Source: a virus (lineage: Duplodnaviria; Caudoviricetes). Taken from it: a DNA stretch of 53,015 nt. Where the stretch lies: the IMG/VR virus record IMGVR_UViG_3300040806_000113, positions 1 to 53,015 of that record. One strand, given 5' to 3'. Made by a program: the position numbers and the translations under genes. Each line of letters opens with the position of its first letter. Position 1 is the first letter of the stretch. Of this stretch, positions 10,154 to 44,999 are shown piece by piece. The notes beneath the pieces are model-generated. The model ran no database searches and had not been told where the DNA came from. It was given only the letters and a program-made list of their open reading frames with translations.

Positions 10154-11911
10154 TTAGGCTAGGAAACCACCTCGCGCTGCTTGGACAGGCTGCTGTCCGT
10201 TCTGTGCAATGCGCTGTTCGGTTTTCCGAATGCCTCGTTTATTAATCTTTTCTAGGCGGTCTTCGCCTATAATCTTTACTAGGTGTGGGGCGATAGTCAC
10301 TTCACCACTCGACACCGCAATGTCAATCAGGTTTGAATGCCGCTCAAAGTCTTCCGTTGAAAGACCCCTGCGAACCGCTTCCTTTTGGGCATCCATAATC
10401 ATTTTACGGATGTCTTTCTCGCCTGCATACTCTACAGCGGCGGCATTTATGATATAAGTACCCTCTTTAGCCTTCATAGGGCGGTCGTCAGCGACTTTAG
10501 CCCCGTCCGTGACCTGTGATGGCGGAGCGTCTATAAAACCGCTCTGTGAGGCTTGTACCCCTGCTGGCGGGGTTCCGAAGGCGTAGGCGTTTCTGTTTTG
10601 CGGTCTGCCGTGGGTAATCATGCCTCCGCGAGCATCACCGCCCCCGTAGCCATCACCTACAGAACCATCTGCATTGCCTGCACCATCGCTGGTTCCGCCG
10701 CCGGGACCATCATTACTATTGTCGTTACTGTTGTCATTATTGTTATCACCCCAATCTGGTGCAGAAGGTGTAGCAGGTCCGGGACCAATTCCCGGTGGGG
10801 TTGATGGGCGACTTGGTTCTGATGGCGTATCAGGGGTAGAAGGTGTACTGGTGTCGTCATCATCATACGTGTTATAATAGTCGTAATTCATACCGGGCTT
10901 TGTCGAAGCAATGCCAGAGAAATCACCCCCCGGAGGAGTGGTGTCGCCATCACCGGCACTAACATCATAACCCTCATAGCTTTGCTGTTGCTCTTTAATG
11001 GCTTCTTCCAGAGTCATAGCCCCTGTGCGGGCTTTTTGTAAAGCTGCGTCTATTTGTGCGCGAGTGAGGCCAGAAGCGTTAGCTAGAGCGTTTGCATGTT
11101 TGGTACTGCCGTAGTACGATGTTTGTCCCGTGGCTGGGTTGTAAAAGTTTCCGCTAGATGTATAGAAGCCGCTTGGAAGTCCTGCGGTAACGCCATCTCC
11201 TTGGGTATCATAACCAATAGCCATCCAGCCAGCCTGTTTAAAAGTCTGGCCTGTTTCTTTACTCATGCTGTAGCTCCTAGGGACAAAACCCTTAGACAGA
11301 GCCTCTAGCCGAATAGCATCTTCTTGTGAAAGACCTCGCATATTTCCTGTATAGGTCAAGGAACCCGGCGCACGGGTAATTCCACCGGTTCCAAAATCTA
11401 TAGCAAAACCAGTTAGGGATGACCCAGACCCGATTGCTGCAGCGATTTTATTCATGTCGTCGTATTGAATTTCGTGAACCTTATCGGCTACAAAACCCAA
11501 AGGACCGGAAGGCCGCATACTTGCGTGACCAAAAGCATTGGTTACTGTGTCACCCGTTATAAAGGAACCCATTATTTTTCCGGGTATCCCGCCCAAAGCA
11601 CCTATTGCTGTTGCAAAAACAGACTTACCAGAAAAATTAAAATCTACGCGGTCTTTGGGCTTTTGATAGGAATAGCCAGATGTATAAGAAGATGGAACAC
11701 CGAACGTCATGCTGTACATGGGGTCGCCAGCTAGGTTCTTGTCGAAGACATCTGGGCGTGTGTCATCCCTACCATTATCAGAAGCTGTGCCTGTGTCCAC
11801 AGGGTCCACGTCAACCCCTGTCCACGTTCCCAAATCGTATAGGCCATAATACTGGCTACCATAATCAATATTACCAGACAGATACTGTTCTTTAGTTAGT
11901 GCTTCAGCCAT
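10154..11911 (-). CDS. Putative internal virion protein with low-complexity linker and duplicated gpH-C-terminus-like motif
   Basis: 585 aa Gly-rich; PT/ND low-complexity tract; 'EGTYIINAAAV...G' and 'SGEVTIAP..V..IG...L..IN'. Confidence 0.6.
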   Translation of the reverse strand: MAEALTKEQYLSGNIDYGSQYYGLYDLGTWTGVDVDPVDTGTASDNGRDDTRPDVFDKNLAGDPMYSMTFGVPSSYTSGYSYQKPKDRVDFNFSGKSVFATAIGALGGIPGKIMGSFITGDTVTNAFGHASMRPSGPLGFVADKVHEIQYDDMNKIAAAIGSGSSLTGFAIDFGTGGITRAPGSLTYTGNMRGLSQEDAIRLEALSKGFVPRSYSMSKETGQTFKQAGWMAIGYDTQGDGVTAGLPSGFYTSSGNFYNPATGQTSYYGSTKHANALANASGLTRAQIDAALQKARTGAMTLEEAIKEQQQSYEGYDVSAGDGDTTPPGGDFSGIASTKPGMNYDYYNTYDDDDTSTPSTPDTPSEPSRPSTPPGIGPGPATPSAPDWGDNNNDNSNDNSNDGPGGGTSDGAGNADGSVGDGYGGGDARGGMITHGRPQNRNAYAFGTPPAGVQASQSGFIDAPPSQVTDGAKVADDRPMKAKEGTYIINAAAVEYAGEKDIRKMIMDAQKEAVRRGLSTEDFERHSNLIDIAVSSGEVTIAPHLVKIIGEDRLEKINKRGIRKTEQRIAQNGQQPVQAARGGFLA

Positions 11912-12128
11912 TTTTTACAATTGCCTCGTGGTTAACCTTCAGTTGAAGGAGGGTTTCCAGTAAAGCCGCTTTCCCCTGCAGTTGGCGCAGTTCCGACTCC
12001 GATTGTGCCGTTACCAGACCCCTGTAAGTCTGTTCCTTCAGGACTTGGAGATACGCCTCCAGCCCCTGCCATATCTGCGGCTGGGCCAGCAGCGGCCCCA
12101 CCAGCTTCGCCTGTTCCTTGCTGTACAT
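11904..12128 (-). CDS. Small conserved protein overlapping the portal 3' end
   Basis: 'ELRQLQGKAALLETLLQLK' helix typical of the post-portal gene; its stop couples to the next start. Confidence 0.6.
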   Translation of the reverse strand: MYSKEQAKLVGPLLAQPQIWQGLEAYLQVLKEQTYRGLVTAQSESELRQLQGKAALLETLLQLKVNHEAIVKNG

Positions 12129-14058
12129 TTGCCATCATTCCTTTTAACATCTGTGCGTAGAGTTGTGCTTGGTTGGCATCGTTGACTAGGCTGTCTGGGT
12201 CGATATCTTGGGAGATAGCTAGTTCCCGCATCAGGTTAGGTATCTTGATGAACGGTGCCAGCATCGGGTTCGCAACGGTTTGCAACAGGGATGTCAAGCG
12301 TTGTGTGCGAACCTCTTTTTGCATCACGGCTGCAACACCGCGAGGCTTGATTTCCAAGTCGCCTTGGATATCTTCGGCATCTTCATTGAACTGCATGTTC
12401 CATTGGAAATAGGCTTCGCCTAAGGGCTTCAAGAGCATGTCGTCGATGTTCTTGATGACAGTCTTCATGGAGAGACCAGCAGAACCCATCAACATAGAGA
12501 GACCAGCGGCGGTTCGTCCGGTTCCAGATACGCCTGTTTGACCGTGCATGATTGATGGGATGCCCGTCTCTTCATCAGCAAGCTGACGACTAATCTGGTA
12601 CATCTGCAGGTTTTCCCCCGCCGTGTTCGGAAACTTCAAGCCGTTAATGGCTGTTCCGGTAACACCAGACTGGCGACGGAAGATTTTGCCGGGGAAAATA
12701 TCCATGTTCTGTCCCGGTACGAGACTAGCTTCATCCACGTCAAAAACAAGGTTGCCAGCAAGAGCCAAGTTGTCGATAGCCATGCGAACATGACCGTTCA
12801 TCAACTTCTGAGCATCTTCCATATTTTCCGCTACACCAACGCCCCAAAGCTGATAAGGATTAACTTCGTAAGGGAACACTTGGAACGGAATACGGGCTGG
12901 TGTGAACGGGTTTAGGACACAGCGAATAACCATGTTTCCGCAAACCCAGACATTAACCTGTAGTTCGTCGAACTCTGACATCTCGTCAGCTTCAGGAAGA
13001 CCTGCTTCGTAGGCCATCTTGGAATCCAAGACACCCCAATACTCTAGAACCTCGTAACGGTTACCCTGATAATAGGGTTCTGTTTCATCTTCGCGAATAG
13101 TGTCTTCGTAATACTTGTCCTCGTAATTAGGACCTTTGGCAAGACACTCTTCAACAGCCTCTGAAATAAAGTGAGGACGCTTTATAAGCGCACGAAGCTG
13201 TTGGCGATTCATGCGGTGACGTTGAATAACATATTCGCAGTCTTCGATGCTAGTAGCAGATGGGTCAGGGTGGAAATCCCACACAGACACCATTTCAATC
13301 CGTGGAACGGTCTTTTCTTCTGGGTTGTAAAAGCGTTCGCCGTTTTCGTCGCGTTCCCATTTGTGAACACGCTTGAAGAAATTAAAGGGACCTTTTACGA
13401 TACCCGTACCCAAAAGGGCCGATTCAAACACAGCGTTACGCATAACGTTGACTGCGTTCGTGTCGGTTAGCTGGTCGTGAATAACTTTTTCCATTCGAAG
13501 GGCTGCTTCTTGGGCAGGGCTAATCTGAGGTTCGCCCATCCGTGCCGGACCCGCTGCCAAGGGAATACCCTCGTACTTCTTCTGAAGGCCACCAAGAAAG
13601 TCGCCGCCCGGTTTTGCTTGCAATGCACCCGGAGCCAGTTCGCGACCATCACCTTTAAACCCATAGGGGTCTTGAGGTTGCATCTGGTCCAAAGGGGTTT
13701 CCATGTGAGCAAACTCCGCGATACCTTCTGGTACGGGAGTGGCTTCCACAACAAGAGGAAACTTCTTGTTTGCGAACAGGATGTCGATGATTTGACCAAA
13801 CGCTGCAAGAACCTTTGTCTTGGTAATACGAACAAAGACCTTCGACCGTTCTGAATCACGGTATTGGGTCGTTGAATCGTAGATACCCCTGAAGTTCTTG
13901 TAGGCTTGGAGCCAACGCTGTTCGTGGGCGTATCGCCCGTTCTCAGCATCTTCGAACCGTGACTTTACATACGCAGCCAGCCCCGGCATTTGCTCTTCTG
14001 GGGCGTGAACCGAAACAGTAGTGTCGTCGGCTGGTTGGAGAAAGTTATCTTCTGACAT
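11932..14058 (-). CDS. Portal protein
   Basis: 708 aa; 'ITKTKVLAA', 'LGTGIVKGP', 'WDFHPDP', 'WGVGVAE...Q', 'RTAAGLSML'. Confidence 0.9.
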   Translation of the reverse strand: MSEDNFLQPADDTTVSVHAPEEQMPGLAAYVKSRFEDAENGRYAHEQRWLQAYKNFRGIYDSTTQYRDSERSKVFVRITKTKVLAAFGQIIDILFANKKFPLVVEATPVPEGIAEFAHMETPLDQMQPQDPYGFKGDGRELAPGALQAKPGGDFLGGLQKKYEGIPLAAGPARMGEPQISPAQEAALRMEKVIHDQLTDTNAVNVMRNAVFESALLGTGIVKGPFNFFKRVHKWERDENGERFYNPEEKTVPRIEMVSVWDFHPDPSATSIEDCEYVIQRHRMNRQQLRALIKRPHFISEAVEECLAKGPNYEDKYYEDTIREDETEPYYQGNRYEVLEYWGVLDSKMAYEAGLPEADEMSEFDELQVNVWVCGNMVIRCVLNPFTPARIPFQVFPYEVNPYQLWGVGVAENMEDAQKLMNGHVRMAIDNLALAGNLVFDVDEASLVPGQNMDIFPGKIFRRQSGVTGTAINGLKFPNTAGENLQMYQISRQLADEETGIPSIMHGQTGVSGTGRTAAGLSMLMGSAGLSMKTVIKNIDDMLLKPLGEAYFQWNMQFNEDAEDIQGDLEIKPRGVAAVMQKEVRTQRLTSLLQTVANPMLAPFIKIPNLMRELAISQDIDPDSLVNDANQAQLYAQMLKGMMANVQQGTGEAGGAAAGPAADMAGAGGVSPSPEGTDLQGSGNGTIGVGTAPTAGESGFTGNPPSTEG

Positions 14059-14064
14059 CTGATT

Positions 14065-14271
14065 TTAGTAGTCGCGTTCTTCAGCCATTTTCATAACTGA
14101 GGGGTCCACTGCCGTTTTAGTCATTTTCTTCGGCATGTCCTCAGTCAGAACGCCTTGCTTTGCCATTGTGTTGAACTCAAGACCTTCACGATACAGCTTG
14201 GCTGCACCACCTTGGTCGTCAATTGACGTTTTGTCGGAGTTCATAATGTAAGCGGCACCCATCTTATCCAT
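14065..14271 (-). CDS. Hypothetical protein
   Basis: AAGGAG RBS; 68 aa between the recombinase-like gene and the portal. Confidence 0.6.
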   Translation of the reverse strand: MDKMGAAYIMNSDKTSIDDQGGAAKLYREGLEFNTMAKQGVLTEDMPKKMTKTAVDPSVMKMAEERDY

Positions 14272-14281
14272 GGTACTCTCC

Positions 14282-16345
14282 TTATCTAGATAAAAAGCCT
14301 TCGTCTCTTACAGGGGCGGCTTCAGGAACCCTGCTTGGTTCTGGGATAAATCCCGTATCTTCTCTGGCAATACGTGCCATGTCTGTTCGTGACGTTCCCT
14401 GCTCTACTTCGGGGGCTGGGATGAAGTCTTGTCCGGCGTAGGGGCCAGCGGGTTCGAGGGGCTGGTCTTCTGGGCGGAGTTCGCCGGAAGCTAGTTCGCT
14501 AGGAGCGAGCATCATCGGAACTGCAGCGGCGGGGGCAGCAGCAAGACCCAAAGCCCGTGCGCCTACCTCCATACCAACTTCTGCAGCAAACGCAGCAGGT
14601 TCTTGAACCGCTTGGCGAACCGTTTCTATAGCTAATGCGCCACCTACTACCTTGAGAGTTTTCTTGCCAAAGTTATTAATCAAATTATTGAAGTCGATAC
14701 CATTACGGTCTAAGAAACCTTTTGTAGTGTCGGATAAGTCATCAAATGTCTTTGGTTCGGGGGATGTGCTGGTTGGTTTTGAAACAGGAACCTCTTCGCG
14801 AACCGGAAGGTCAAAATAACCTTCGTATCCTGCGGTTTGGGTCGTGATGCGAGTTTCTGGCATCGGGATTTTGGATTGGATATCAAAACCGGCTTCTGCT
14901 GCAGATTTGCCATAAAACGATGACACTTGTGAAGAGAACTCTCTATCTACATCAGATACCTCTCCCGGAAATGCTTTTTGATAACCCGCCAGTTCTCCTG
15001 TAGAACCTTTTGATGCAGCCTTTAAACTACGTCCTTGTAGATATGCTGTTCGTTCTTGAGGTATACCTAGAGATAAAGCAACAGATGAATGTACATTACG
15101 AAGAAGAGGAGAGCCTGTTTTGCCCGGCCCATTTTCTGGATGAAGAGAGTCGTAAAACTTTTTGGTGGATTGGTCGTACATTATCTGAGGGACTTTTACA
15201 GTTCTCAGTATTTTATTTATGTCATCTGTTTTAACTTGTGCGCCTGTTGACTTAGTAAAAAACCTGTCTCCGGGTTTTTTGCCCTGTAGCAATTCTTGCA
15301 AAATAGAATCAGCAACGGGATTTAAAGGTATATTAACCGCACGACCTTTAGCACCCTGCACATCAGCTTCGATGTAAACTGCTCCGGTGTCTGGAAAATA
15401 CTTATCTAAAGTAAGATTTAATACAGCATTAGGTCGCAGACCCGTATTTAAATTGAACAGAATAGCCAATGCTGCAGGTCTAGTTTCAGGGTTATCTAAA
15501 AATTGGGACACCCCTTCAAACAGTCTTGCTTGTTTTTTAGGGTCAGAACTAATTGCTATTTGGGCTTCTGATTTGGGTGGTTCTGCTCTACCAAAGATAC
15601 GTTTGTTTAAGGCTGTATCGGGCTTCTCATCAGGTAGCAACTTGTATTCTGGTGTATCAGGACCTGTTTTTTCTTTAAGAAGAATGCCTACCTGTCTGAG
15701 ATTCTGCATCGCAGCCTTGATAGGCGCATTTTCGTCAAGGCTGGTAAATGTTTTAGATAAAAGAGTGCGACCTTCGGCATCTTTTTCAAACAATCGTAAA
15801 GCTGAACCGGGTTCATCAGCTATTTCTTTAAAATACTGGATAGTAGGCCCAACAAAGTCTTTACGCTTAGATTTTTCAGCGTAAGCTTGGGCAACTTCAC
15901 GGAGAGTAGCGGTTTTGGGGTCGAGGTCAGCCACGGGTTTCTTTGATTCACCTTTAAATTTAAGAGGACTAAGAGGGTCTTTATCTGTTAAACGATTAAT
16001 ATAAATGTCTTCGTCGTCTACATTAATCCACTTAGCAAGTTTTGGGTCTTGCTTAGATGTAGCTTTATACATATAGCCTGCTGTAGCTTCTTGACTATAT
16101 AGCCGTAAGATTTCTTCTTTTGAAACGCCTCTACTAGAAGGTCTTAACTCATCGCCTTGATAAATATCATAGACATCGCCACGCTTCCTTATTTCTTGAA
16201 TATTACCCTTTGTTTGCTTGCCACCAGACCCTTTTTCATTTTTCATAAACCCAATAACAATAAAAGGTTTATCTAAGTCGGCTTCTGTTATAGGCTTACT
16301 GGCAAGACTATTTTCTTTTACAAACTTTATATCGTCGTTTGCCAT
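14282..16345 (-). CDS. Tyrosine-recombinase-domain protein (atypical active site) with long extensions
   Basis: 'LNTGLRP' (box I Arg), 'AKGRAVNIPL' (Lys), 'LLRNVHS' (box II Arg), 'YLQGR' (LGH position), 'LAGY' (Tyr). Confidence 0.7.
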   Translation of the reverse strand: MANDDIKFVKENSLASKPITEADLDKPFIVIGFMKNEKGSGGKQTKGNIQEIRKRGDVYDIYQGDELRPSSRGVSKEEILRLYSQEATAGYMYKATSKQDPKLAKWINVDDEDIYINRLTDKDPLSPLKFKGESKKPVADLDPKTATLREVAQAYAEKSKRKDFVGPTIQYFKEIADEPGSALRLFEKDAEGRTLLSKTFTSLDENAPIKAAMQNLRQVGILLKEKTGPDTPEYKLLPDEKPDTALNKRIFGRAEPPKSEAQIAISSDPKKQARLFEGVSQFLDNPETRPAALAILFNLNTGLRPNAVLNLTLDKYFPDTGAVYIEADVQGAKGRAVNIPLNPVADSILQELLQGKKPGDRFFTKSTGAQVKTDDINKILRTVKVPQIMYDQSTKKFYDSLHPENGPGKTGSPLLRNVHSSVALSLGIPQERTAYLQGRSLKAASKGSTGELAGYQKAFPGEVSDVDREFSSQVSSFYGKSAAEAGFDIQSKIPMPETRITTQTAGYEGYFDLPVREEVPVSKPTSTSPEPKTFDDLSDTTKGFLDRNGIDFNNLINNFGKKTLKVVGGALAIETVRQAVQEPAAFAAEVGMEVGARALGLAAAPAAAVPMMLAPSELASGELRPEDQPLEPAGPYAGQDFIPAPEVEQGTSRTDMARIAREDTGFIPEPSRVPEAAPVRDEGFLSR

Positions 16346-16348
16346 AGG

Positions 16349-18070
16349 TTAATATCCAAAGGTAGCATCATAAGGTTTAAAGGTCTGGTCCTTTATCCCC
16401 TGAAGCGTTTTATGTATAGATTGATAACCAGATGTTCGCGTCATAACCATATATCGCAACGCATCATAGGCATGGTCCTCTGCTCGCGTGTCTACATCTT
16501 CGCTGTTAGTTTTGGAGAGTGGAATGCCTGATAGCTGTGCAATGATATGCTTACAAGTGGAAAAAATCCGCATACGGGGTTCTTTGGAGTACGGGTCGTC
16601 AGCAAGCCGCCTGTGTAGTTCCATTTTTCCTTGAAGACGGTTGCGGTCTGAGGGAGTCCACCTAACCCCGGACCTCATCATAGTTTCTGCGATAGAAGGT
16701 CCGAATCCGGTTTTGTTCCAGCAGGAAGAGTCCAAGACCGTGTAGTGTGGTGTAGGGTCTAACTCTTCACATTCTAATATTTTATCAGCTAATTGTTCTG
16801 CTGTCAAGTGTTTTACGTATAATTCGCGATAAACCCAAATATTGTTATCCCAGTCAATAGCACCCCACAGAACACACGACGGCGACGAGTAGCCGTAGTC
16901 GGCGGCTCGTATGCGGGGCCAGTTCGTGGGAAGGTCAAAATGTTCGACCACATGTCGTGTCCTCGAAAACTCTGGGAAGGCCGCTCCCTCTGCCACATCC
17001 CAATCCCCTTCGAGAAGTCGTCTACGCTCGACTTCTGGGAGTGACCGAAGCATGGCCTCGTACTGACCATCTGCCATCAGGAAGGGGTTATCTGTCAGCC
17101 GTGCTGGGATAAACTTGCGGTAGAACAGAGGCTGACCTGCTTTTGGGTGATTTTCAGGCCACACGAAAGTACGGCCTGTCTCTAGGTCCTTGGCCCCGAA
17201 CGCCTTGTTGGGTTCATGGGCATCAATGTACATTTTCTTAACCCACCAGCCGCCAACACCACCGGGGTTCGCTGTGCAGCGCATGGTCAGGTTTGTCTGT
17301 AACTCAGGGTCTGTAGAACGTAGACGGGAACGAAGATAGTCCCAAACGTAACTCGTTGGGTATTGGGTTATTTCATCTATGCCAATCCAGTTGAACGCCT
17401 GTCCCTGAAAACGGGTAACGTCTTTGTCCCTGTCGAGATAGGTGAACCACATGGTTGCACCAGACGGGAACACCCACGTTGACTTTGACTCACGGAAGAT
17501 GGCTCCGGGAAAAGCCTTGGGGTATAGCTGCTTCGACTTGTCGATGAGTTCGGTTAGCTCGTCTAACGTGCGGCGGAGAAGAAGTCCACGATGATTAGCA
17601 TTGTGACAATAGCGTAGGGGGTCAGCAAGTAGAGCAAACGACTTGCCTCCGCCAGCGGCTCCCCCATAGAGTACATCTTGTTCAGGGGCAGAAAGGAAAT
17701 CTTCTTGAGGCCCCTCGTTAGGTTTGAATATAATAGGCGTGTCATCAATTAGGTCCGTTACGGCTTTGGGTAGTACGTCTAAATCACCAGCGTCTATAAC
17801 GCGGGTCTTGTTGCCGTTCATGGCGTTTTCAATGTTCTTGGCAGCGGTAGTCAGGTCCTTGACCTTTTTGCGCTTGCGAGCAACACGGGTTTCTTCTCGC
17901 TGTTGTTGCTTCTTTGCATTCCGCAACTTCATCTGTACGGAACGCCGCGCACGTTCCCTGTCACTTATATTGTGCGTGGTTTTTGATTCACCGGGTCTTT
18001 TCTTAGGTCTTCCGACCTTGCCTAAGTCTTCTGGGTTCGGGGGGACTAGAACTCTTTTGCGTGGGGCCAC
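16349..18070 (-). CDS. terL: Terminase large subunit
   Basis: Walker A 'YGGAAGGGKS', Walker B 'IGIDE', 'TANPGG', nuclease 'ADYG' and 'DHAYDALRY'; start uncertain (GTG 18070). Confidence 0.93.
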   Translation of the reverse strand: MAPRKRVLVPPNPEDLGKVGRPKKRPGESKTTHNISDRERARRSVQMKLRNAKKQQQREETRVARKRKKVKDLTTAAKNIENAMNGNKTRVIDAGDLDVLPKAVTDLIDDTPIIFKPNEGPQEDFLSAPEQDVLYGGAAGGGKSFALLADPLRYCHNANHRGLLLRRTLDELTELIDKSKQLYPKAFPGAIFRESKSTWVFPSGATMWFTYLDRDKDVTRFQGQAFNWIGIDEITQYPTSYVWDYLRSRLRSTDPELQTNLTMRCTANPGGVGGWWVKKMYIDAHEPNKAFGAKDLETGRTFVWPENHPKAGQPLFYRKFIPARLTDNPFLMADGQYEAMLRSLPEVERRRLLEGDWDVAEGAAFPEFSRTRHVVEHFDLPTNWPRIRAADYGYSSPSCVLWGAIDWDNNIWVYRELYVKHLTAEQLADKILECEELDPTPHYTVLDSSCWNKTGFGPSIAETMMRSGVRWTPSDRNRLQGKMELHRRLADDPYSKEPRMRIFSTCKHIIAQLSGIPLSKTNSEDVDTRAEDHAYDALRYMVMTRTSGYQSIHKTLQGIKDQTFKPYDATFGY

Positions 18071-18077
18071 TGTATAC

Positions 18078-18275
18078 CTATGGCTTTTCTGAACTGGCTG
18101 ATGCTGAACGCCCACGGCTTTCTTTTTTGTTTGCTTTGTCCCACATTTTTAATCCAGCAGCAATATCATCTTTATCATCTCCATATACACGAGAAAGATG
18201 ATTATAAGCTTGTTCTCTACTCATTTTAGTAAAATCAGTAAAGAAGTCTTTTGTGGCCTGATATGCAGATTCCAT
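18078..18275 (-). CDS. Hypothetical protein
   Basis: 65 aa, ends 'RGRSASASSEKP'. Confidence 0.5.
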   Translation of the reverse strand: MESAYQATKDFFTDFTKMSREQAYNHLSRVYGDDKDDIAAGLKMWDKANKKESRGRSASASSEKP

Positions 18276-18279
18276 GACC

Positions 18280-18645
18280 TTAATCCTTATTGCCCATTGC
18301 TTTGCGACCACGGCAAGAAGACATCTTCTTCACACCGCCCTTTTTGGTGCCGTATGCGTAGCCGCGAACTTTGCCGCCCTTGGCTAGTGCGCCTTCTTTA
18401 TTTTGACCGCCCATATTTTCTACTTCTTTAGTAGTAGCACTGTTAAAGCGACGAACACGTTCTTTAATAAACTTATTTCTAGCTATACTGCCCATGCTGC
18501 CTAGCTTTGTGCGCTCTGCTTTTTTTTGTTCAGGACTCAAGGTTTTTATAAATGCCTTGTATTGTTCCATTACATCTTCTGACGGAGGCTTCATACCCTT
18601 GCTACTGTTTAATAGCTGGTCTCCAATGTTGTCAAACATTCCCAT
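18280..18645 (-). CDS. Basic protein with AKGG/YAYG/GRKA motifs
   Basis: GAAGGA RBS; 121 aa. Confidence 0.6.
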   Translation of the reverse strand: MGMFDNIGDQLLNSSKGMKPPSEDVMEQYKAFIKTLSPEQKKAERTKLGSMGSIARNKFIKERVRRFNSATTKEVENMGGQNKEGALAKGGKVRGYAYGTKKGGVKKMSSCRGRKAMGNKD

Positions 18646-18660
18646 AGTCTCGTTCCTTCT

Positions 18661-18828
18661 CTATATAGTATAGTTGGCTTTCCTGCCGCGAACCATGCCA
18701 CCAAAGGCTTTACCGTATCGTTCACGAACCGTTTTGGTTTGCAGTACCTTGTACCGCTCATATTCTTTATTCGTTAAGTTGCTGACGTTTTCCATCGCAA
18801 TCTTTAATATTTCTTTATCACTCCGCAT
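18661..18828 (-). CDS. Small basic protein
   Basis: MRSDKE..., ends 'AFGGMVRGRKANYTI'; overlaps the terS stop. Confidence 0.55.
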   Translation of the reverse strand: MRSDKEILKIAMENVSNLTNKEYERYKVLQTKTVRERYGKAFGGMVRGRKANYTI

Positions 18829-19222
18829 CGATAACCACTTCTTTCTTGGGTGGCAACAGGACAACCCCGTGGATTGCCTGTACGTTGTGGTTCATTGTTT
18901 CTTGTTTGGCTATGCCGACGCGGTTCAGGATACTTTCCGCTGCTTTCATCCGCAGTTCGTCCCCGCGTTCGATATCAGGGGCCGTTACGAGGCTTGCCAA
19001 CTTGTTCGCGGCTGACAAGGAGTGGCCCGCTAACATGACTTTGGTACGCTCTATAATCTCATCAGCCAACCGTTCCTTGAGCCACGTAACTGACTTAGGG
19101 GAATATCCCACGAGTTCGGCAGCAACGGTCATATTGCCGTTGTTTTCGAACAGAGCGTCTAGGAACTGCTCCTGCTTTTCAGTTAGGGCAGCTTTTTTAT
19201 TCGTTTGGGGTAGTAAATTCAT
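18818..19222 (-). CDS. terS: Terminase small subunit (putative)
   Basis: 'LTEKQEQFLDAL...AAELVGYS' HTH typical of TerS; upstream of terL. Confidence 0.75.
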   Translation of the reverse strand: MNLLPQTNKKAALTEKQEQFLDALFENNGNMTVAAELVGYSPKSVTWLKERLADEIIERTKVMLAGHSLSAANKLASLVTAPDIERGDELRMKAAESILNRVGIAKQETMNHNVQAIHGVVLLPPKKEVVIDAE

Positions 19223-19228
19223 GGGGAT

Positions 19229-19429
19229 TTACGTTGGTGTACCTTTTGTATTTGTACACTTCCATTTTATGTTTAGTTCGAACAGGTTTGCACCCGTGGC
19301 GAACTCTGCCATTTCGTCAACACGACGCATACAGTCAGGTTTACTGGCGTAGGGACCTCGTGTGTCGCTCAACTCAACACATTCTTGGGGTGCTGCAGCT
19401 AAACATATTAGTAAGACAGCTTCGAACAT
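19229..19429 (-). CDS. Small Cys-containing protein with hydrophobic N-terminus
   Basis: MFEAVLLICL..., GGAG RBS, first gene after a promoter. Confidence 0.6.
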   Translation of the reverse strand: MFEAVLLICLAAAPQECVELSDTRGPYASKPDCMRRVDEMAEFATGANLFELNIKWKCTNTKGTPT

Positions 19430-19463
19430 GGTGTTCTCCCGCGAACATGTGGCATACCCCTGT

Positions 19464-19492
19464 ATTATGGTGGGTTTTGGAACCGGTGTCAA
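19464..19492 (-). promoter_or_regulatory. Sigma70 promoter of the packaging/structural arm
   Basis: TTGACA-17 bp-CATAAT. Confidence 0.75.
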
Positions 19493-19543
19493 CCCGTTTT
19501 TCACGTGGTTTACTAAAAAATAACCAAAAATGAAAAAAAGGTG

Positions 19544-19572
19544 TTGACAAATGCGGAAAATGACGCTACCAT
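19544..19572 (+). promoter_or_regulatory. Divergent sigma70 promoter firing into the non-coding region
   Basis: TTGACA-17 bp-TACCAT with an A-rich UP-like tract upstream. Confidence 0.65.
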
Positions 19573-19578
19573 AGGACC

Positions 19579-19693
19579 TAGTCCTGCCGGGGTAAACCCT
19601 ATACACACCCAAGCCCCCCGGTTTCCCCCCAATGGTTCGCAAAGTTACATGAATGGTCCCCCTGTTGGTTCGCCCAGCGGGGGGTTTTTCTTT
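19579..19693 (+). ncRNA. Candidate ~110-nt small RNA
   Basis: Lies between that promoter and a GC hairpin plus T tract; no credible ORF. Confidence 0.4.
19658..19693 (+). terminator. Intrinsic terminator
   Basis: CCCCTGTTGG-TTCGC-CCAGCGGGGG stem followed by TTTTTCTTT. Confidence 0.6.
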
Positions 19694-20070
19694 GGGGCAA
19701 CTCCGGTTCCCCCAGAGGTTCGCAAATTAACCATATCGATAACCTAAAAAGTAGAAAAAATATGTCGGGTTTGCATAGCAAATGCAGGGGGGGTGGGGTG
19801 ACCCTTGCGTACCCGCGCACGAGCCATATTTTTATCTTGTTTGTCTCAATCACCGATACCCTAACCCCGCGAACATAAGCCAAACCCCGCGAACACATGG
19901 GAAACCCCATAGCGAACCCGCGCCCGCCCGCGCCCGTGTAGTTGATTTGTCATGCTTGTTTGTTGTGGGGTGGGCTGTCGGTCTGGTAAATGATAGCAAT
20001 CTCGCTGCAATTCCAAACCCAAAACCCCAAGGGATTACCGCCGGTTATCCCCTTTTAATATAACCGGCAT

Positions 20071-20104
20071 AAAAAAACCCCCCCGCCGACTAGGGCAAGG
20101 GGGG
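20071..20104 (-). terminator. Intrinsic terminator ending the early-gene arm
   Basis: C6...G7 stem followed by T7 on the minus strand. Confidence 0.7.
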
Positions 20105-20157
20105 CAAGGCTGGAGCGGGTAAGGGAGGAAACAACCCCGCCCCATGGGTTCGCAAAG

Positions 20158-20625
20158 TTACGCAGGGATACGGTAAATCTTCATGTATCTGCCTGCTTGA
20201 CGGCTGCCAAGGTGGTGAATCTGGACTGTGTAACCGTTCTTTTTCAAGGTGGTTAGCATTGCGTAAATGCTCTGTTTCTTACACTCAAGGTTACCAGCAA
20301 GCACCGGCACCGATTGATACCCGCGCTTTAGTTCCGCAACAAGCCGGTGATGCCGCGCTGCCATCCTATGCCAGTTGTTCGCGGGCTTTGCTGGCTGTTC
20401 GCGGCTGGTATCTTCCCCGCTGCGGTCTTCAAATATCCGCAACAGTTTTTCGGCCTTTTCCTTTTCGCGCTTGGCATAACTGGCTTCTAGTTCGGCAACG
20501 TAACCGCGCCAGATGCGGGTTGCCTCTTCTGTGGCCTTTTCCCGCTCATCGGCACGAATAGCAGACTCAGCGTCAACAAGGTCATTAGCAAGTGATGCAC
20601 GGATTGTTTCAATTGATTTGGTCAT
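20158..20625 (-). CDS. Coiled-coil plus C-terminal winged-HTH protein
   Basis: 'SVPVLAGNLECKKQSIYAMLTTLKKNGYTV...YRI'; own promoter CTGACC-17-TATAAT near 20685-20713. Confidence 0.6.
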   Translation of the reverse strand: MTKSIETIRASLANDLVDAESAIRADEREKATEEATRIWRGYVAELEASYAKREKEKAEKLLRIFEDRSGEDTSREQPAKPANNWHRMAARHHRLVAELKRGYQSVPVLAGNLECKKQSIYAMLTTLKKNGYTVQIHHLGSRQAGRYMKIYRIPA

Positions 20626-20793
20626 TTTGTGGTTCTTTCTGCCCCTCGGGGCGTTGGTTGGTTTAAGCAATAAAGACCGCATATATTATAGAGATTATCA
20701 ACAGTACGGTCAGGCTGCGATAAATTACATAAAGGGCTTCCATGGTTCATATCCCAAACAAGATGCAAACAAGCATCACGATTTCAAGCAACG

Positions 20794-21902: not shown

Positions 21903-22044
21903 CAATAAAAATAGATAAATAAAATGGATGCCGCCCCGCGACTCGCGACACCCTTTGCTAATACCGCACCCAGTCCCCCCGAACCACCAAGAACACTGCA
22001 GGTAACATACTAGCCCCAAGAAAAAGTTTAGCGTGGTTGATTTG

Positions 22045-22662: not shown

Positions 22663-22702
22663 CGGTTCGGGTTCCTTCGTTTGGTTAATTGATTACCTAC
22701 CA

Positions 22703-42030: not shown

Positions 42031-42033
42031 TTA

Positions 42034-43929
42034 TTAAGCCCCCATTCCTATTGCTTTCAAAATCGCTTCCATAGATGCAGGTTTCGTACCCTGCTCATCA
42101 GTGAAGAAATTACCCTGTCCATCTGTATAGTATCCAGAGGGGTCTAATACAAGGCCCGTCTTAGGCTCTTCAGCGGCGGATGCTCCAACGGAAGGCTTGG
42201 GTGTTGTAGCTGCATAGTTCGCAGATTCGATACGGCGGATTACTCCGTCGGCTTTCAAAATACGGGCTTCTCGTTTCCCGAATTCTCCTGCTGGAACTTG
42301 AGCAACTTCGTAGAGGACCGCCAGTCTGGTGCTGTTGTTTTCAAAATCACTGATAACCTGACCTAGACCTGCAGTAGCTTGAGGTTTAGATACAAACAAT
42401 CCTGTCTGTCCTAGACGGCGTAGTTGAATTTCAAAGTCTTGGTTTGATAGACGACCTGATGGGTCAACAGCGCGAGCCATCTGTGCTGCAAGAGACAACT
42501 TCAAAGAGTCGATTACAGATAGGTTTTTGGCAGATTCAGGTGAAAGAAATCCAGAGCGCACTGCAACTTCTGTCAAGGTTGCTGCGTCTGTACCCTCTGC
42601 AGTTTCAAAACTTCCAAAGAACTGCTGTAACTGACCACCTTCACCAAAGATACCAAACCCTACGCTTTGCATAGCTGCTTTAAGACCTGTAGGAGTATTA
42701 TCCTTTTTAAGAAGTTCATCTAACTGTTGCAACTGGCGCAAAGCAGTTTGATTAGCCTCGTACTGGTCGATAACCTGCGAACGGTTCAAGCCATTAGATT
42801 TAAAGTAATCGTCGGCAGGCTTCATCTTAACACGACGTTTATTGAAACCTATTACGGGAACATTATCTTCCTTTAGCTTAATCAAAGGGGCATATGCTTG
42901 AATAGCTGCGCGACGGTCTCCGCCAAACTCTTCTTGAACATAGTTCGCGAACTGCTGGTTCATGGCTTGGTTACCACCCATAGTTCTTGCTAGGTCGCCA
43001 AATCCAAACTGTTCCATCTCTACTGCAGACAGAAGAGTTGAGTAGGCAGACTCCGCATCTTCAGCACGGGCCACATCTGAAAAGTTCGTTATGAATTTTT
43101 GAACACCTTCTTTATCGGCTCCGTATCCCAAGTTTGCTGATATGCGGCCTAGAGCATCTAGCTGGTTCGGGTCAGCGAACTCTACTACAGACTCTTTTCT
43201 CTTACCCTCTTCTGTTCTAAAAGAGAATATAAAGGCTTTGTCTGGGCTGCTGATATTGCCAACGTTTAATTCTTTTTCTATCAGTTTTGCGTGTGCATTT
43301 ACGGTTACTTGGTCGCTTGCCTTTGGCTGGTTCTCAGCCTGTGGGTCTAGTTCGTTTAAGAAATTAAATAGACTTTTATAGCTGTCTTGCGGATGGATGT
43401 ATTCAGATTCGATTTCTCCAGATACTGGATTTATCTTACGCTGCCCATCAATATAGTAATCCCCATATGTGAACACATCTGTTTTAAACGCTGCGAAATC
43501 CTGCGGATTCTGAAAAAAGTGTTCTCTCATGCGTTGCCGTTCTTCGGGTTTGCGAACAATATCGTTCATGGTTCGCAGCCAAGTACCACCTGCACGGAGT
43601 TTGTTGTCTGGGCGAATATCTTCTTCCCATTTTTTAAAGGGTTTAGGAAACTGAAGTTGATTATAGCCAAAACTAGAATCTACGTTATTCATCGTATTAG
43701 CTAGGGTTGTGAAATCCATGCCACCCCCCATACCGGAGGCTTTTATAAGTTGTGCAGCAACGCCTTTATCACCCTCTTTGGATTTAAGTATATCTACCCC
43801 AGAGGTAAACAATAGCTTATTTCTTTCTGCATCTGCTTCTGCGTTAGCTTTTCTTTGAGCAGCAGCTTCAGCATCCATCTCACGCTTGCCCTGCACCATG
43901 CCGTTAACAAATGAAAGTAAAGCAGTCAT
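42034..43929 (-). CDS. Internal virion protein
   Basis: 631 aa; 'GRLSNQD' motif; position. Confidence 0.55.
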   Translation of the reverse strand: MTALLSFVNGMVQGKREMDAEAAAQRKANAEADAERNKLLFTSGVDILKSKEGDKGVAAQLIKASGMGGGMDFTTLANTMNNVDSSFGYNQLQFPKPFKKWEEDIRPDNKLRAGGTWLRTMNDIVRKPEERQRMREHFFQNPQDFAAFKTDVFTYGDYYIDGQRKINPVSGEIESEYIHPQDSYKSLFNFLNELDPQAENQPKASDQVTVNAHAKLIEKELNVGNISSPDKAFIFSFRTEEGKRKESVVEFADPNQLDALGRISANLGYGADKEGVQKFITNFSDVARAEDAESAYSTLLSAVEMEQFGFGDLARTMGGNQAMNQQFANYVQEEFGGDRRAAIQAYAPLIKLKEDNVPVIGFNKRRVKMKPADDYFKSNGLNRSQVIDQYEANQTALRQLQQLDELLKKDNTPTGLKAAMQSVGFGIFGEGGQLQQFFGSFETAEGTDAATLTEVAVRSGFLSPESAKNLSVIDSLKLSLAAQMARAVDPSGRLSNQDFEIQLRRLGQTGLFVSKPQATAGLGQVISDFENNSTRLAVLYEVAQVPAGEFGKREARILKADGVIRRIESANYAATTPKPSVGASAAEEPKTGLVLDPSGYYTDGQGNFFTDEQGTKPASMEAILKAIGMGA

Positions 43930-44468
43930 TATTTAGTCTCCTTATTTTCATCATCGGTAAGAAAACCGCGCTCTTCTGGTTCGCGGGGCTTATTGCCTTC
44001 ACGGATAGTGGCGTTGACAGTTTCTTGAATGAAGGTAAACATGCTTGGATTGTTTTGCTTCATCATACGGAAGAAGGTTTCATCGTCCATTTCGTTTTCT
44101 TTATCCGCGTCGTCGTTCTCGAACAGGCGGTACGGAATGTTCTCTTCTTCTGCCATGTTCGCAAGGAAGATAGCCAAAGATGGTTTCATCAACATGCCCA
44201 TATCAGGAGTGAACAGCCCCTCTTGGAACCCTGTAAAAATAATGCCTTCGATGATAACTTCGATAGAGATACCGACCATCATCAGCTTTAGCAACTCTTG
44301 CTTTACTTTAGGCTTCTTGATTTTATTAATTGCTTTTTCTAGGGCAATGTCTGGGTCAACGTCTTGCGGTGGCTGTCCCCAAGGCCATTGAGAATTGTCC
44401 TGTGTTAAGGAATGTCCCGGAGGTGCTTCAGCGAACATGTCTCCAAGGCGAGGGTCTCTAATAGCCAT
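43929..44468 (-). CDS. Conserved virion-associated protein
   Basis: 'APPGHSLT....WPWGQPP' motif. Confidence 0.6.
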   Translation of the reverse strand: MAIRDPRLGDMFAEAPPGHSLTQDNSQWPWGQPPQDVDPDIALEKAINKIKKPKVKQELLKLMMVGISIEVIIEGIIFTGFQEGLFTPDMGMLMKPSLAIFLANMAEEENIPYRLFENDDADKENEMDDETFFRMMKQNNPSMFTFIQETVNATIREGNKPREPEERGFLTDDENKETK

Positions 44469-44983: not shown

Positions 44984-44999
44984 ATCTAAATCCTATCTA

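What the first reader, a model, noticed from the sequence alone, without database searches (positions are those of the whole stretch)
14282..16345. Tyrosine-recombinase-domain protein embedded between terminase and portal, built like an ejected virion protein
Seen: a catalytic-domain-like segment (~14980-15480) keeps box I Arg (TGLR), Lys (AKG), box II Arg (LLR) and a downstream Tyr (LAGY). The HxxR His is not conserved, LGH reads QGR and the Glu after box I is absent. A core-binding-like segment (TLREVAQAY) precedes it, with ~140 extra N-terminal residues and a ~190-aa C-terminal tail containing an Ala-rich hydrophobic stretch and ending 'EGFLSR', echoing 'GGFLA' (10154) and 'RGFL' (43929 gene). 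Known: phage integrases normally sit in early/lysogeny modules next to attP; none is in the early arm here. Inference: a late-expressed, possibly packaged and injected recombinase/resolvase/topoisomerase-like enzyme acting on genome ends or concatemers, or a catalytically dead DNA clamp.
Basis: partly seen in the sequence, partly recalled or inferred. Interest (0 to 1): 0.85.

Follow-up and report, generated by a model that had tools for sequence, protein, structure and literature searches.

The report
Recombinase embedded in phage head operon
An uncultured lineage of marine phages carries a divergent but apparently working DNA-recombinase gene between its DNA-packaging and portal genes, with a swappable enzyme core and a conserved tail peptide that hints it is tethered to, or loaded into, the virus head.

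Summary
ORF 14282-16345(-) encodes 687 aa and lies 3 nt after the large terminase gene (TerL), just upstream of a 68-aa ORF and the portal gene. The window is a complete HMO-2011-type podophage genome. Residues 139-520 fold as a two-domain tyrosine recombinase. With the core-only model, all listed Foldseek hits at E<=1e-3 are Xer, lambda Int or Tn1549 Int. Protelomerase TelA is weaker and no topoisomerase IB appears. Pfam stays below threshold.

R304, K333, R416, R439 and Y455 are conserved across the family. The canonical HxxR His is lost, and Arg replaces the His/Trp.

The family is small (98 representatives of 1.84 billion). It has no significant match among 50,697 deposited phages, and pattern scans found none in 185,579 prokaryote genomes. 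It is always in the TerL-portal slot.

The gene is modular: an optional N-terminal module, a deeply divergent core, and a disordered tail. The core is under purifying selection (dN/dS 0.03-0.11) but is exchanged as a cassette. The tail evolves with the backbone and ends in a conserved GF(L/I/V) peptide, shared with two other virion-module proteins.

Best reading (0.4): an active late recombinase tethered to the head, probably packaged and co-injected. Packaging, activity and DNA target are untested. An ordinary integrase is unlikely.

The parts
14282..16345 (-). Whole gene 'X', 687 aa: tyrosine-recombinase-like protein of the head/packaging operon
   Evidence: ORF. Homologs. Fold.
15935..16345 (-). 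Optional N-terminal module, residues 1-137, 'type A'; beta-rich, modelled at low to moderate confidence
   Evidence: Occupied in about 30% of the 120 homologs. Other loci carry a different 'type B' module or none. No Pfam family. Secondary structure.
15551..15931 (-). Core-binding-like helical domain, about residues 139-265, includes TLREVAQAY
   Evidence: Core model has pLDDT 84.7. Foldseek alignments of 315-362 columns at E<=1e-3 span both domains of Xer, lambda Int and Tn1549 Int.
14801..15550 (-). Catalytic domain, about residues 266-515. Codons: R304 15434-15436, K333 15347-15349, R416 15098-15100, H419 15089-15091, R439 15029-15031, Y455 14981-14983
   Evidence: PF00589 profile positions 9-118 match residues 280-384. 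These residues are invariant in alignment A2. Family-wide counts. Coordinates checked.
14369..14800 (-). Disordered, variable tail, residues 516-659, with an Ala/Gly-rich predicted helical pair at about 574-598
   Evidence: pLDDT below 50 for 558-687. At least three non-alignable linker types. Nucleotide identity follows the backbone, not the core.
14285..14368 (-). Conserved C-terminal peptide, residues 660-687: ED-x-G-F/M-I/V ... R-x-P-E-A-A-P ... x-G-F-L/I/V
   Evidence: It is the only strongly conserved block of the tail alignment; G, A, G and F are invariant in 23 sequences. The motif is in the last 12 aa of 110 of 120 close homologs and 24 of 56 distant representatives of at least 500 aa.
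16349..18115 (-). Terminase large subunit, immediately upstream (3-nt gap)
   Evidence: Terminase_6N and phrog_979 at 6.5e-62. Upstream of X in 65 of 67 loci; the other 2 contigs start inside X.
14065..14271 (-). 68-aa ORF between X and portal, highly conserved, no known family
   Evidence: Up to 96-100% identical in backbone-close loci, lower (down to 58%) in more distant ones. No Pfam, PHROG or NCBIfam match.
11932..14058 (-). Portal protein; its own C-terminal tail carries a conserved GExGFTGN
   Evidence: SU10_portal 7e-30 and phrog_332. F699 and G701 are invariant in 22 sequences.
10154..11911 (-). 585-aa protein after the portal: hypervariable body, conserved C-terminal part ending GGFLA (same layout as X)
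   Evidence: Mosaic profile. Homolog C-termini GGFLA, GGFLT, GGFISL, ERGFLD... No family match.
43929..44468 (-). 179-aa ORF in the tail/injection block with ..ERGFLTDDENKETK at its C-terminus (third GFL carrier)
   Evidence: No PHROG or NCBIfam family.
19464..19492 (-). Sigma-70-like promoter (TTGACA-17-CATAAT, 11 of 12) at the head of the TerS-TerL-X-portal operon
   Evidence: This is a consensus match only; the number of sites in the region is not above the shuffle expectation.

Best explanation
X is a catalytically competent but highly derived tyrosine recombinase. It is made late, together with terminase, portal and head proteins. Its long disordered tail and conserved C-terminal GF(L/I/V) peptide tether it physically to the head-assembly or packaging machinery. 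Most likely the peptide acts as a capsid-targeting (cargo-loading) signal, so that a few copies are enclosed in the procapsid and leave with the DNA at infection. There the recombinase core (R304-K333-R416-R439-Y455) would cut and rejoin DNA through a 3'-phosphotyrosine link before any phage gene is expressed. Possible jobs are circularising or otherwise processing the incoming genome, or acting on host DNA.

Shown: the fold, the residue conservation, the operon position, the clade-wide synteny, the cassette-like exchange of the core with the tail linked to the backbone, and the shared terminal motif.

Inferred: catalysis, tethering, packaging, injection and the DNA target.
For: Fold:
- The core model has pLDDT 84.7 and pTM 0.73.
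- 13 PDB hits reach E<=1e-3. The 12 listed are all XerA/Xer, Tn1549 Int or lambda Int, aligned over 315-362 columns.
- The top 3 hits in the BFVD viral structure library are integrases.
- 18 of 21 diverse cores hit PF00589 at E<=0.01.

Catalytic set:
- It is invariant in 21 sequences down to 40% identity.
- Family-wide counts are R304 72/72, K333 54/66, R416 64/65, R439 64/65 and Y455 49/55. Five of the 6 Tyr misses have a Tyr a few residues away.
- The R416-to-R439 spacing of 23 equals the canonical Arg-to-His/Trp spacing. That canonical value is recalled, not tested here.
- dN/dS is 0.03-0.11 within allele classes.

Late and head linkage:
- Gaps to TerL, the 68-aa ORF and the portal are 3, 10 and 6 nt. 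The promoter lies upstream of the small terminase gene (TerS).
- The gene order is the same in every locus long enough to show it. TerL in 65 of 67 loci and portal in 49 of 67, with the rest truncated; 12 of 13 on each side.

Tail as an anchor:
- Window versus L008 gives dS of 0.29 (TerL), 0.45 (portal) and 0.23 (X tail), but 2.7 for the X core.
- P0191 has a tail at least 90% identical by eye on a core about 31% identical.
- The only conserved tail block is the last ~28 aa.
- The motif also ends p585 and ORF 43929-44468, and lies in the portal's own C-tail.

Precedents (passages read):
- P1 DarB is encoded beside the portal gene and is loaded by a 30-aa terminal signal; T4 IPIII has a comparable signal (PMC9024508).
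- N4 ejection protein gp51 docks beside the portal and is absent from empty particles (PMC13434306).
Against: - There is no direct evidence that X is in virions. No cultured phage carries X or p585, so no proteome exists.
- Known capsid-targeting signals (T4, P1) are N-terminal, not C-terminal.
- No recombination site was identified. The window has no inverted repeat of 20 nt or more with nearby arms, and the repeats upstream of TerS do not co-vary with the core allele.
- His II of the canonical hexad is missing, and Arg replaces His/Trp III. Activity is therefore not guaranteed.
- Pfam stays under its gathering score.
- One natural variant (L025/P0077) lacks the 21-residue segment that holds the Tyr.
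- A promoter-like site inside TerL (16807-16779) could give X its own expression.
Confidence: 0.4

Rival explanations
1. X is a late recombinase or resolvase that is not packaged. It acts in the infected cell on replicating phage DNA, resolving multimers, branches or Holliday junctions, or processing concatemers before packaging. Its tail docks it onto the portal/terminase/procapsid so that it works where DNA is packaged.
For: It shares the fold, catalytic-residue and operon evidence of the main reading. Its position directly after TerL fits a packaging-coupled task. The lytic phage phiCbK has a tyrosine recombinase for which its authors proposed resolution of replicative intermediates or multimers (PMC3556154, passage read). 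The tail is linked to the structural backbone.
Against: It does not explain why the core exists as several ancient alleles swapped between near-identical genomes. A housekeeping resolvase acting on the phage's own DNA should co-evolve with that DNA. No candidate site was found. Cultured HMO-2011-type relatives manage without the gene.
Confidence: 0.25
2. X is an ordinary phage integrase for lysogeny that happens to sit in the late operon.
For: The fold is closest to integrases and Xer recombinases. 12 of the 120 listed homologs are named 'integrase' by a source. Integrase cassettes are commonly exchanged between related temperate phages, which would fit the allele swapping. Some HMO-2011-type phages are temperate (PMC9038755, passages).
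Against: The published HMO-2011-type integrases lie upstream of the replication module, not here (PMC9038755). There is no non-coding DNA next to X for an attP: the gaps are 3 and 10 nt. The window has no tRNA gene. Pattern scans of one genome for each of 185,579 species found no relative of X. The 8 MAG contigs with a related portal show no X match; where both TerL and portal were found, the gap is 247-1146 nt. Tails of about 130-200 aa ending in a conserved terminal peptide, and family lengths of 520-750 aa, are unlike integrases. X is co-oriented and tightly packed with TerL and portal.
Confidence: 0.12
3. X is a selfish or accessory cassette (moron- or homing-like) parked in the permissive TerL-portal gap, with no role in the phage's own life cycle.
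For: X is absent from cultured and more distant HMO-2011-type phages. In those, the gap holds nothing or small unrelated ORFs. The core is exchanged horizontally.
Against: X is present in every locus of the clade that reaches the slot. It is always intact. One exception is the in-frame deletion in L025. The core is under strong purifying selection. The tail is co-inherited with the head genes, and its terminal motif is shared with other virion-module proteins. No second location was ever seen.
Confidence: 0.1
4. X is a catalytically inactive structural or DNA-clamping protein that only keeps the recombinase fold.
For: His II is lost, the His/Trp III position is changed, and the Glu after box I is missing. 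The Tyr region is modelled with low confidence. One variant lacks the Tyr segment.
Against: Both Arg residues, the extra Arg, the Lys and the Tyr nucleophile persist across the whole family. In dead homologs the nucleophile is usually not maintained; that is general knowledge, not tested here.
Confidence: 0.08

Closest known systems
Simple tyrosine recombinases of the lambda-Int/Xer/Cre superfamily (XerA 5hxy, XerH 5jk0, Tn1549 Int 6emz, lambda Int 1z19, Cre 1nzb)
   Same: Two-domain core-binding plus catalytic fold. Box I Arg, beta-hairpin Lys, box II Arg and the Tyr nucleophile are conserved.
   Different: Pfam score is below threshold, and only the first two thirds of the catalytic profile align. 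His II is replaced by variable residues. His/Trp III is replaced by an invariant Arg. An invariant His sits 3 residues after box II Arg. The Tyr is 16 residues after that Arg, not about 9 (the usual value is recalled). The protein is nearly twice as long, with an optional N-module and a tail of about 170 aa. It lies in a head operon.
Conventional integrases of HMO-2011-type phages (subgroups I-III; CRP-3 integrates)
   Same: Same phage group and same enzyme superfamily.
   Different: Those lie upstream of the replication module and go with lysogeny (PMC9038755, passages). X lies between TerL and portal in genomes that have no such integrase. X has no significant match in any deposited phage.
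Tyrosine recombinase gp143 of the lytic Caulobacter phage phiCbK
   Same: A tyrosine recombinase in a phage not known to lysogenise; its authors suggested resolution of replication intermediates (PMC3556154, passage).
   Different: gp143 is a 208-aa bare catalytic core discussed among the replication genes. X is 687 aa with both domains plus a tail, and lies in the head module.
Capsid-targeted, injected enzymes: P1 DarB and T4 internal protein IPIII
   Same: These are enzyme cargo loaded into the head through a short terminal peptide and delivered with the DNA. darB is the ORF next to the portal gene (PMC9024508, passages and table). X has a variable payload on a conserved address peptide.
   Different: Their signals are N-terminal, and packaging has been shown experimentally. 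X's peptide is C-terminal and packaging is only inferred. The payload is a recombinase, which I found nowhere described as packaged.
Protelomerases / telomere resolvases (TelA 4dwp, ResT 8vs5, TelK)
   Same: Long tyrosine-recombinase relatives with extra domains. Distant members of the X family often have Tyr at the His II position (15 of 65), as I recall for resolvases.
   Different: The fold match is weak (TelA E 1e-2, ResT E 5.3). His III is Arg, not His. The genome has no long palindromic target.
N4-type ejection protein gp51
   Same: A short helical hairpin docks beside the portal of a podophage with a related portal type and leaves on ejection (PMC13434306, passage). X's tail has a predicted helical pair.
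   Different: No sequence or fold relation was tested or seen. This is an analogy only.

Membership tests
Tyrosine recombinase superfamily (lambda-Int/Xer/Cre; Pfam PF00589) | Two-domain fold: helical core-binding domain plus catalytic domain | tested here: met
   The core model has pLDDT 84.7. 13 PDB hits reach E<=1e-3; the 12 listed are all tyrosine recombinases, aligned over 315-362 columns. The top 3 BFVD hits are integrases.
Tyrosine recombinase superfamily (lambda-Int/Xer/Cre; Pfam PF00589) | Sequence profile match above Pfam's gathering score | tested here: not met
   Scores are 22.2-25.2 bits against a cut-off of 27.1, covering profile positions 9-118 of 172 only. 18 of 21 family cores reach E<=0.01, best 7.3e-6.
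Tyrosine recombinase superfamily (lambda-Int/Xer/Cre; Pfam PF00589) | Catalytic Arg (box I), Lys, Arg (box II) and Tyr nucleophile | tested here: met
   Invariant in alignment A2. Family-wide counts: R 72/72, K 54/66, R 64/65, Y 49/55, with 5 of the 6 misses having a nearby Tyr.
Tyrosine recombinase superfamily (lambda-Int/Xer/Cre; Pfam PF00589) | His II (HxxR) and His/Trp III | tested here: not met
   Position 413 is P in the window and variable elsewhere (Y 15, Q 14, S 8, A 8 ... of 65). Position 439 is Arg in 64 of 65.
Tyrosine recombinase superfamily (lambda-Int/Xer/Cre; Pfam PF00589) | Cleavage and rejoining of DNA through a 3'-phosphotyrosine at a defined site | not testable with these tools
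   Needs biochemistry. No candidate site was found.
Temperate-phage integrase (lysogeny module) | attP next to the gene, and integrated prophage forms in host genomes | tested here: not met
   The gaps around X are 3 and 10 nt. The window has no tRNA gene. No relative was found in genome contigs. Related portals occur on 8 MAG contigs without an X match. The host is unknown, so absence is not proof.
Protelomerase / telomere resolvase | Large palindromic resolution site and closest fold to TelK/TelA/ResT | tested here: not met
   No inverted repeat of 20 nt or more has adjacent arms. TelA scores E 1e-2 and ResT E 5.3, behind 13 recombinase hits.
Type IB topoisomerase | TopoIB fold or profile | tested here: not met
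   No TopoIB chain appears among the rows listed (to rank 50) of the 58 Foldseek matches at E<=10. Pfam gives no topoisomerase family at E<=10.
Capsid-targeted / ejected virion proteins (T4 IP, P1 Dar type) | Short conserved terminal address peptide on a variable payload | tested here: met
   The last ~28 aa are the only conserved tail block. The motif is in 110 of 120 close homologs and 24 of 56 distant ones. It is shared with p585 and ORF 43929-44468. That it works as an address is inferred.
Capsid-targeted / ejected virion proteins (T4 IP, P1 Dar type) | Physical presence in the virion and release on infection | not testable with these tools
   No cultured carrier exists. Proteomics or cryo-EM is needed.

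The most novel reading that the evidence does not exclude
These phages package a working site-specific tyrosine recombinase inside the capsid. Packaging uses a C-terminal cargo-loading peptide, GF(L/I/V), that several head-internal proteins share, much as encapsulins address their cargo. The enzyme is injected with the genome, so DNA is recombined (circularised, integrated or rearranged) before any gene is expressed. The enzyme core is kept as a set of ancient, interchangeable alleles, which implies different DNA or host specificities under frequency-dependent selection. This would be the first phage known to deliver a recombinase as a virion protein, and a new C-terminal class of capsid-targeting signal.
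Probability: 0.25. Interest if true: 0.85.

Novelty: new variant of a known kind. Interest (0 to 1): 0.68.

Why it matters
HMO-2011-type phages are described as a dominant and broadly distributed marine viral group (PMC9038755 abstract). A whole uncultured branch of them carries, inside its most conserved operon, an enzyme class normally tied to lysogeny, in a form and place that do not fit lysogeny.

If the protein is packaged, it extends the list of enzymes that phages inject (RNA polymerases, anti-restriction proteins) to site-specific recombinases. It would also define a short C-terminal address peptide that could be reused to load proteins into capsids.

The exchange of deeply diverged enzyme cores on one conserved tail is a clean natural example of payload/address modularity in a virion protein. 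It points to an unknown specificity, DNA site or host factor, under diversifying pressure.

Practically, automatic annotation of this gene as 'integrase' would wrongly flag these phages as temperate.

Tried and rejected
Complex prediction. I ran portal (alignment A5, 708 aa) with the X tail (A6, 158 aa). The tool's verdict was no answer, score 0.00, with no controls run. It counts neither for nor against binding. After seeing that the portal's own tail carries a GF motif, I think the scaffold or the major capsid protein may be the better candidate receptor.

Structure libraries. pdb_via_wide and pdb_via were not on the machine. The full-length model (pLDDT 63) gave only XerH at E 1.5e-3 and 4.1e-3. 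Re-folding the core alone solved this.

Searches that found nothing useful:
- phmmer against PDB sequences.
- The profile of A1 against PDB gave XerH at E 0.054, plus chance hits of the Ala-rich tail to chemoreceptors.
- Pfam on the N-terminal modules and tail.
- NCBIfam gave only a 15.7-bit L25/Ctc scrap on residues 45-92.
- ESM Atlas, for the N-module and for p585.
- PHROGs, for the 1485-, 631-, 179-, 171- and 443-aa virion-block ORFs.

An idea that the type A N-module is an AP2/arm-binding domain rests only on its predicted three strands plus a helix. No profile supports it, so I dropped it.

The genomic context of the YxxR-type members other than P0191 is therefore unseen.

Reads. All runs are kept as contigs, so ends, strands and expression levels cannot be read. 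The near absence of RNA-library contigs over 19416-20717 is cover-absence only and is not used as evidence. The same holds for the low RNA-library depth over X. A 160-nt skip inside X in one RNA-run contig (15610 to 15771) was laid at 90% likeness and probably comes from another allele.

Literature. Searches found no description of a recombinase between terminase and portal, or of a virion-packaged tyrosine recombinase. The library lacks most subscription journals, and supplements were closed. The supplementary gene tables of PMC9038755 could list this gene. P1 Cre as a cyclisation enzyme near the pac site is recalled only; one search retrieved nothing usable on it.
Full report
WHAT IS THERE. 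The window is a complete viral record of 53,015 bp, with CheckV completeness 100%. Its two ends overlap by 742 nt, with 728 of 742 positions identical. Portal, terminase and capsid place it among HMO-2011-type marine podophages. The best portal matches are Pelagibacter phage HTVC033P (52.5%), HTVC115P, Roseobacter phages CRP-1, CRP-2 and CRP-207, and Puniceispirillum phage HMO-2011.

ORF 14282..16345(-) encodes 687 aa, here called X. It starts 3 nt after the stop codon of the large terminase gene TerL (16349..18115). After 10 nt comes a 68-aa ORF, and after 6 more nt the portal gene (11932..14058). Next are a 585-aa ORF (p585), a scaffold-like protein (phrog_13678) and the major capsid protein (phrog_267). 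A strong sigma-70-like promoter (11 of 12) lies upstream of the small terminase gene TerS at 19492-19464. No convincing terminator on the coding strand separates TerS from p585. One promoter-like site lies inside TerL. These are consensus matches only.

FOLD AND FAMILY. Sequence profiles see only a weak, partial integrase signal. PF00589 scores 22-25 bits against a cut-off of 27.1, covering profile positions 9-118 of 172. phrog_216 'integrase' scores 1.2e-7. 18 of 21 diverse family cores reach E<=0.01.

The full-length AlphaFold model is confident for residues ~140-510 and disordered for 513-687. With it, Foldseek found only XerH-DNA complexes, at E 1.5e-3 and 4.1e-3. The top three BFVD hits were integrases.

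Re-folding residues 139-520 alone, with a 21-sequence alignment (A2), gave pLDDT 84.7 and pTM 0.73. That model gave 13 PDB hits at E<=1e-3. The 12 listed are XerA/Xer, Tn1549 integrase and lambda integrase; rank 11 was a further chain of a listed entry. XerH, IntI and Cre follow just behind. Alignments run over 315-362 columns at E<=1e-3, which covers both the core-binding and catalytic domains. Protelomerase TelA appears only at E 1e-2 and ResT at E 5.3. No topoisomerase IB appears among the listed rows. Pfam at E<=10 lists no topoisomerase or telomere-resolvase family.

So X is a two-domain tyrosine recombinase by fold, closest to the simple Xer/Int/Cre type, and too divergent for curated sequence thresholds.

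ACTIVE SITE. In A2 (40-83% identical to the window), R304, K333, R416, N417, H419, R439 and Y455 are invariant. I left one sequence, L025, out of A2. It has a 21-residue in-frame deletion that removes the Tyr segment.

Across the representatives from the exhaustive profile search, counts at aligned positions are:
- R304 72/72
- K333 54/66
- R416 64/65
- H419 45/65
- R439 64/65
- Y455 49/55

Five of the six Tyr misses have a Tyr a few residues away, which looks like alignment offset.

The canonical His three residues before box II Arg is not conserved (P in the window; Y 15, Q 14, S 8, A 8 ... of 65). The His/Trp III position holds an invariant Arg, 23 residues after R416. That spacing matches the canonical one, which I recall and did not test. 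H419 lies one helical turn after R416 and may substitute for the lost His; this is inference. The Tyr sits 16 residues after R439, in a segment of low model confidence.

Within allele classes the core has dN/dS of 0.03-0.11 (dS is near saturation in several pairs). These facts favour a working enzyme over a dead scaffold.

DISTRIBUTION AND SYNTENY. The word-indexed search gave 263 relatives at E<=1e-3 among 8000 scored candidates, with the best 120 listed. Of those 120, 12 are named 'integrase' by a source and 2 carry a precomputed PF00589 hit.

The exhaustive profile search of 1.84 billion representatives found only 98 proteins at E<=1e-3. Most full-length ones are 520-750 aa. Ordinary-length integrases appear only at the weak end.

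No deposited phage among 50,697 has a significant match; the best are E>=0.4 scraps on integrases. Pattern scans of one genome for each of 185,579 species found none.

In IMG/VR I examined 67 loci. TerL is directly upstream of X in 65; the other 2 contigs begin inside X. The portal is downstream in 49; the other 18 end first. No other order was seen. In 13 more distant loci, where X is 30-45% identical, TerL is upstream in 12 and the portal downstream in 12.

Cultured HMO-2011-type phages have TerL next to the portal, or only small ORFs between them. Of eight MAG contigs with related portals, none shows an X match; in the five with both TerL and portal the gap is 247-1146 nt. Those contigs look like mis-binned phage contigs. 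None shows an integrated X-bearing prophage.

The published integrases of this phage group lie upstream of the replication module, and subgroups IV-X are reported to lack lysogeny genes (PMC9038755, passages read). The window has no second PF00589-like gene and no tRNA gene.

MODULAR ARCHITECTURE AND MOSAIC EVOLUTION. X has four parts.

(i) An N-terminal module is occupied in about 30% of the 120 homologs. It comes as type A (window, L005), an unrelated type B (L013, L022, L025, L027, L049) or nothing (L008, L036, L045 and the distant groups).

(ii) The recombinase core.

(iii) A disordered linker has at least three non-alignable types, each with an Ala/Gly-rich hydrophobic stretch.

(iv) The last ~28 residues are the only conserved tail block: ED-x-G-F/M-I/V, then R-x-P-E-A-A-P, then x-G-F-L/I/V.

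X is less conserved than both neighbours in 48 of 48 loci where all three genes align over at least 300 residues. Median identities are TerL 85%, X 56% and portal 88%.

The divergence is not uniform. Against L010, nucleotide identity is 90-98% over TerL and 50-71% over the core. It is 82-95% over the tail and 88-95% over the 68-aa ORF and portal. Window versus L008 gives dS of 0.29 (TerL), 0.45 (portal) and 0.23 (tail), but 2.7 for the core, with dN 0.30 against 0.014-0.048. P0191 carries a tail at least 90% identical by eye to the window's on a core only ~31% identical, which still shows R, K, YxxR, R and Y.

The core is therefore an old, interchangeable cassette. The tail belongs to the structural backbone. 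N-modules assort independently of core type.

p585 shows the same layout: a hypervariable body (5-50% nt identity) and a conserved C-terminal part (83-94%).

One independent DNA run gives a hint. Its contigs end at both edges of X: records end at 14391, span 14397-16165, and start at 16265. The X contig has a lower mean depth (5.7) than its neighbours (12-16). This is what co-existing alleles on a shared backbone would produce. The data are contigs, not reads.

THE C-TERMINAL PEPTIDE. A motif [GSNDE]-F-[LIVM] lies within the last 12 residues of 110 of 120 close homologs. It is also in 24 of 56 distant representatives of at least 500 aa. Some distant subgroups end instead in ..V-x-Y-P...

Among 247 distinct ORF C-termini in the fetched loci, all 36 that end in GF[LIVM] belong to ORFs of at least 400 aa. 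By length these are homologs of X and p585. p585 homologs end GGFLA, GGFLT, GGFISL, ERGFLD.. or EGFVNN.

In the window, the motif occurs at the end of X, p585, ORF 43929-44468 and one probably non-coding frame, among 62 ORFs of at least 100 aa. The portal's own low-complexity C-tail carries GExGFTGN, with F699 and G701 invariant in 22 sequences.

A variable payload, a disordered linker and a short conserved terminal peptide make up the logic of an address signal.

HOW IT MOST LIKELY WORKS. Shown:
- A recombinase fold with a conserved catalytic set.
- Co-location and probable co-expression with head genes.
- A tail that evolves with the head module.
- A terminal peptide shared by proteins of the virion blocks.

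Inferred: the peptide tethers X to a head component, and X is enclosed in the procapsid and released with the DNA. The scaffold, the capsid interior or the portal region are candidate receptors.

Precedents:
- P1 DarB is encoded next to the portal gene and is loaded by a 30-aa terminal signal; T4 IPIII has a comparable signal (PMC9024508, passages).
- In N4-like podophages an ejection-protein hairpin docks beside the portal and vanishes from empty particles (PMC13434306, passage).

An injected recombinase could circularise or otherwise process incoming DNA, or act on host DNA, before transcription starts. The coexistence of ancient core alleles suggests differing specificities or an arms race.

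The main rival is a non-packaged, packaging-coupled resolvase, as proposed for phiCbK gp143 (PMC3556154, passage). It explains the position but not the allele diversity. An ordinary integrase, a selfish cassette and a dead clamp are each disfavoured, as set out under the rival explanations.

THE DNA TARGET REMAINS UNKNOWN. The window has no inverted repeat of 20 nt or more with neighbouring arms. The 19430-20160 spacer holds three direct copies of GTAACTTTGCGAACC-like repeats and GC-rich hairpins. The same repeat occurs unchanged in loci with a different core allele (L008, L010, L014, L022). It follows the backbone, not X, and may be a regulatory or pac-related element.

LIMITS. Nothing here shows the protein in a particle, an enzymatic activity or a DNA substrate. 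The host is unknown. All read data were contigs. The one complex prediction gave no verdict; it is listed under Tried and rejected.

Noticed in passing
window 1-742 and 52274-53015: The two ends of the record are a 742-nt direct overlap, with 728 of 742 positions identical. It falls inside an ORF (195-875 / 52468-53013). This looks like a circular or permuted assembly closed over two strain variants rather than a true terminal repeat. The unique genome is about 52,273 bp.
   Followed up: partly
window 19627-20161 (minus strand): There are three direct copies of a 22-nt element (core GTAACTTTGCGAACC), each near a GC-rich hairpin followed by a T run, in the 730-nt spacer upstream of the late promoter and TerS. 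The element is conserved in related loci whatever their X allele. It may be a regulator-binding or pac-related site.
   Followed up: partly
window 22026-22944: There are four copies of a 22-nt repeat (GTTTAGCGTGGTTGATTTGTCA on the + strand) between small minus-strand ORFs. Read on the minus strand it resembles a repeated promoter or operator.
   Followed up: no
window 10154-11911 (p585): The protein after the portal has a hypervariable, low-complexity body (Pro/Asp/Asn/Gly-rich) and a conserved C-terminal ~150 aa ending GGFLA. It has no match in Pfam, PHROGs, NCBIfam or deposited phages. It shares X's payload-plus-address layout.
   Followed up: partly
window 11932-12140 (portal C-terminal tail): The portal ends in a Gly/Ala/Pro-rich tail of about 70 aa with a conserved GExGFTGN motif (F699 and G701 invariant in 22 sequences). 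This echoes the GF motif of X, p585 and ORF 43929-44468.
   Followed up: partly
L025 1479-3446 (protein P0077): A natural X variant has a 21-residue in-frame deletion that removes SLK...YQQAFP, including the presumed nucleophile Tyr. The rest of the protein, including the tail, is intact. It could be a dead allele or an assembly error.
   Followed up: no
window 46830-50279: A 1149-aa ORF holds a long array of 51-nt (17-aa) periodic repeats at 47479-49446. This probably marks a repetitive fibre or beta-helix tail protein.
   Followed up: no
window 18200-18900: The stretch between TerS and TerL (ORFs of 121, 77 and 67 aa) is another island of low identity (14-52% nt) between otherwise 90-98% identical backbones.
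   Followed up: no
window 37573-46331: A block of large ORFs (1485, 631, 179, 171 and 443 aa) has no PHROG family at E<=1e-3. By position these may be internal or ejection proteins of this podophage.
   Followed up: partly
window 20794-21816: A DUF932 protein (E 4.8e-20) is encoded at the start of the minus-strand early block. A GP88-like protein lies at 22045-22662.
   Followed up: no
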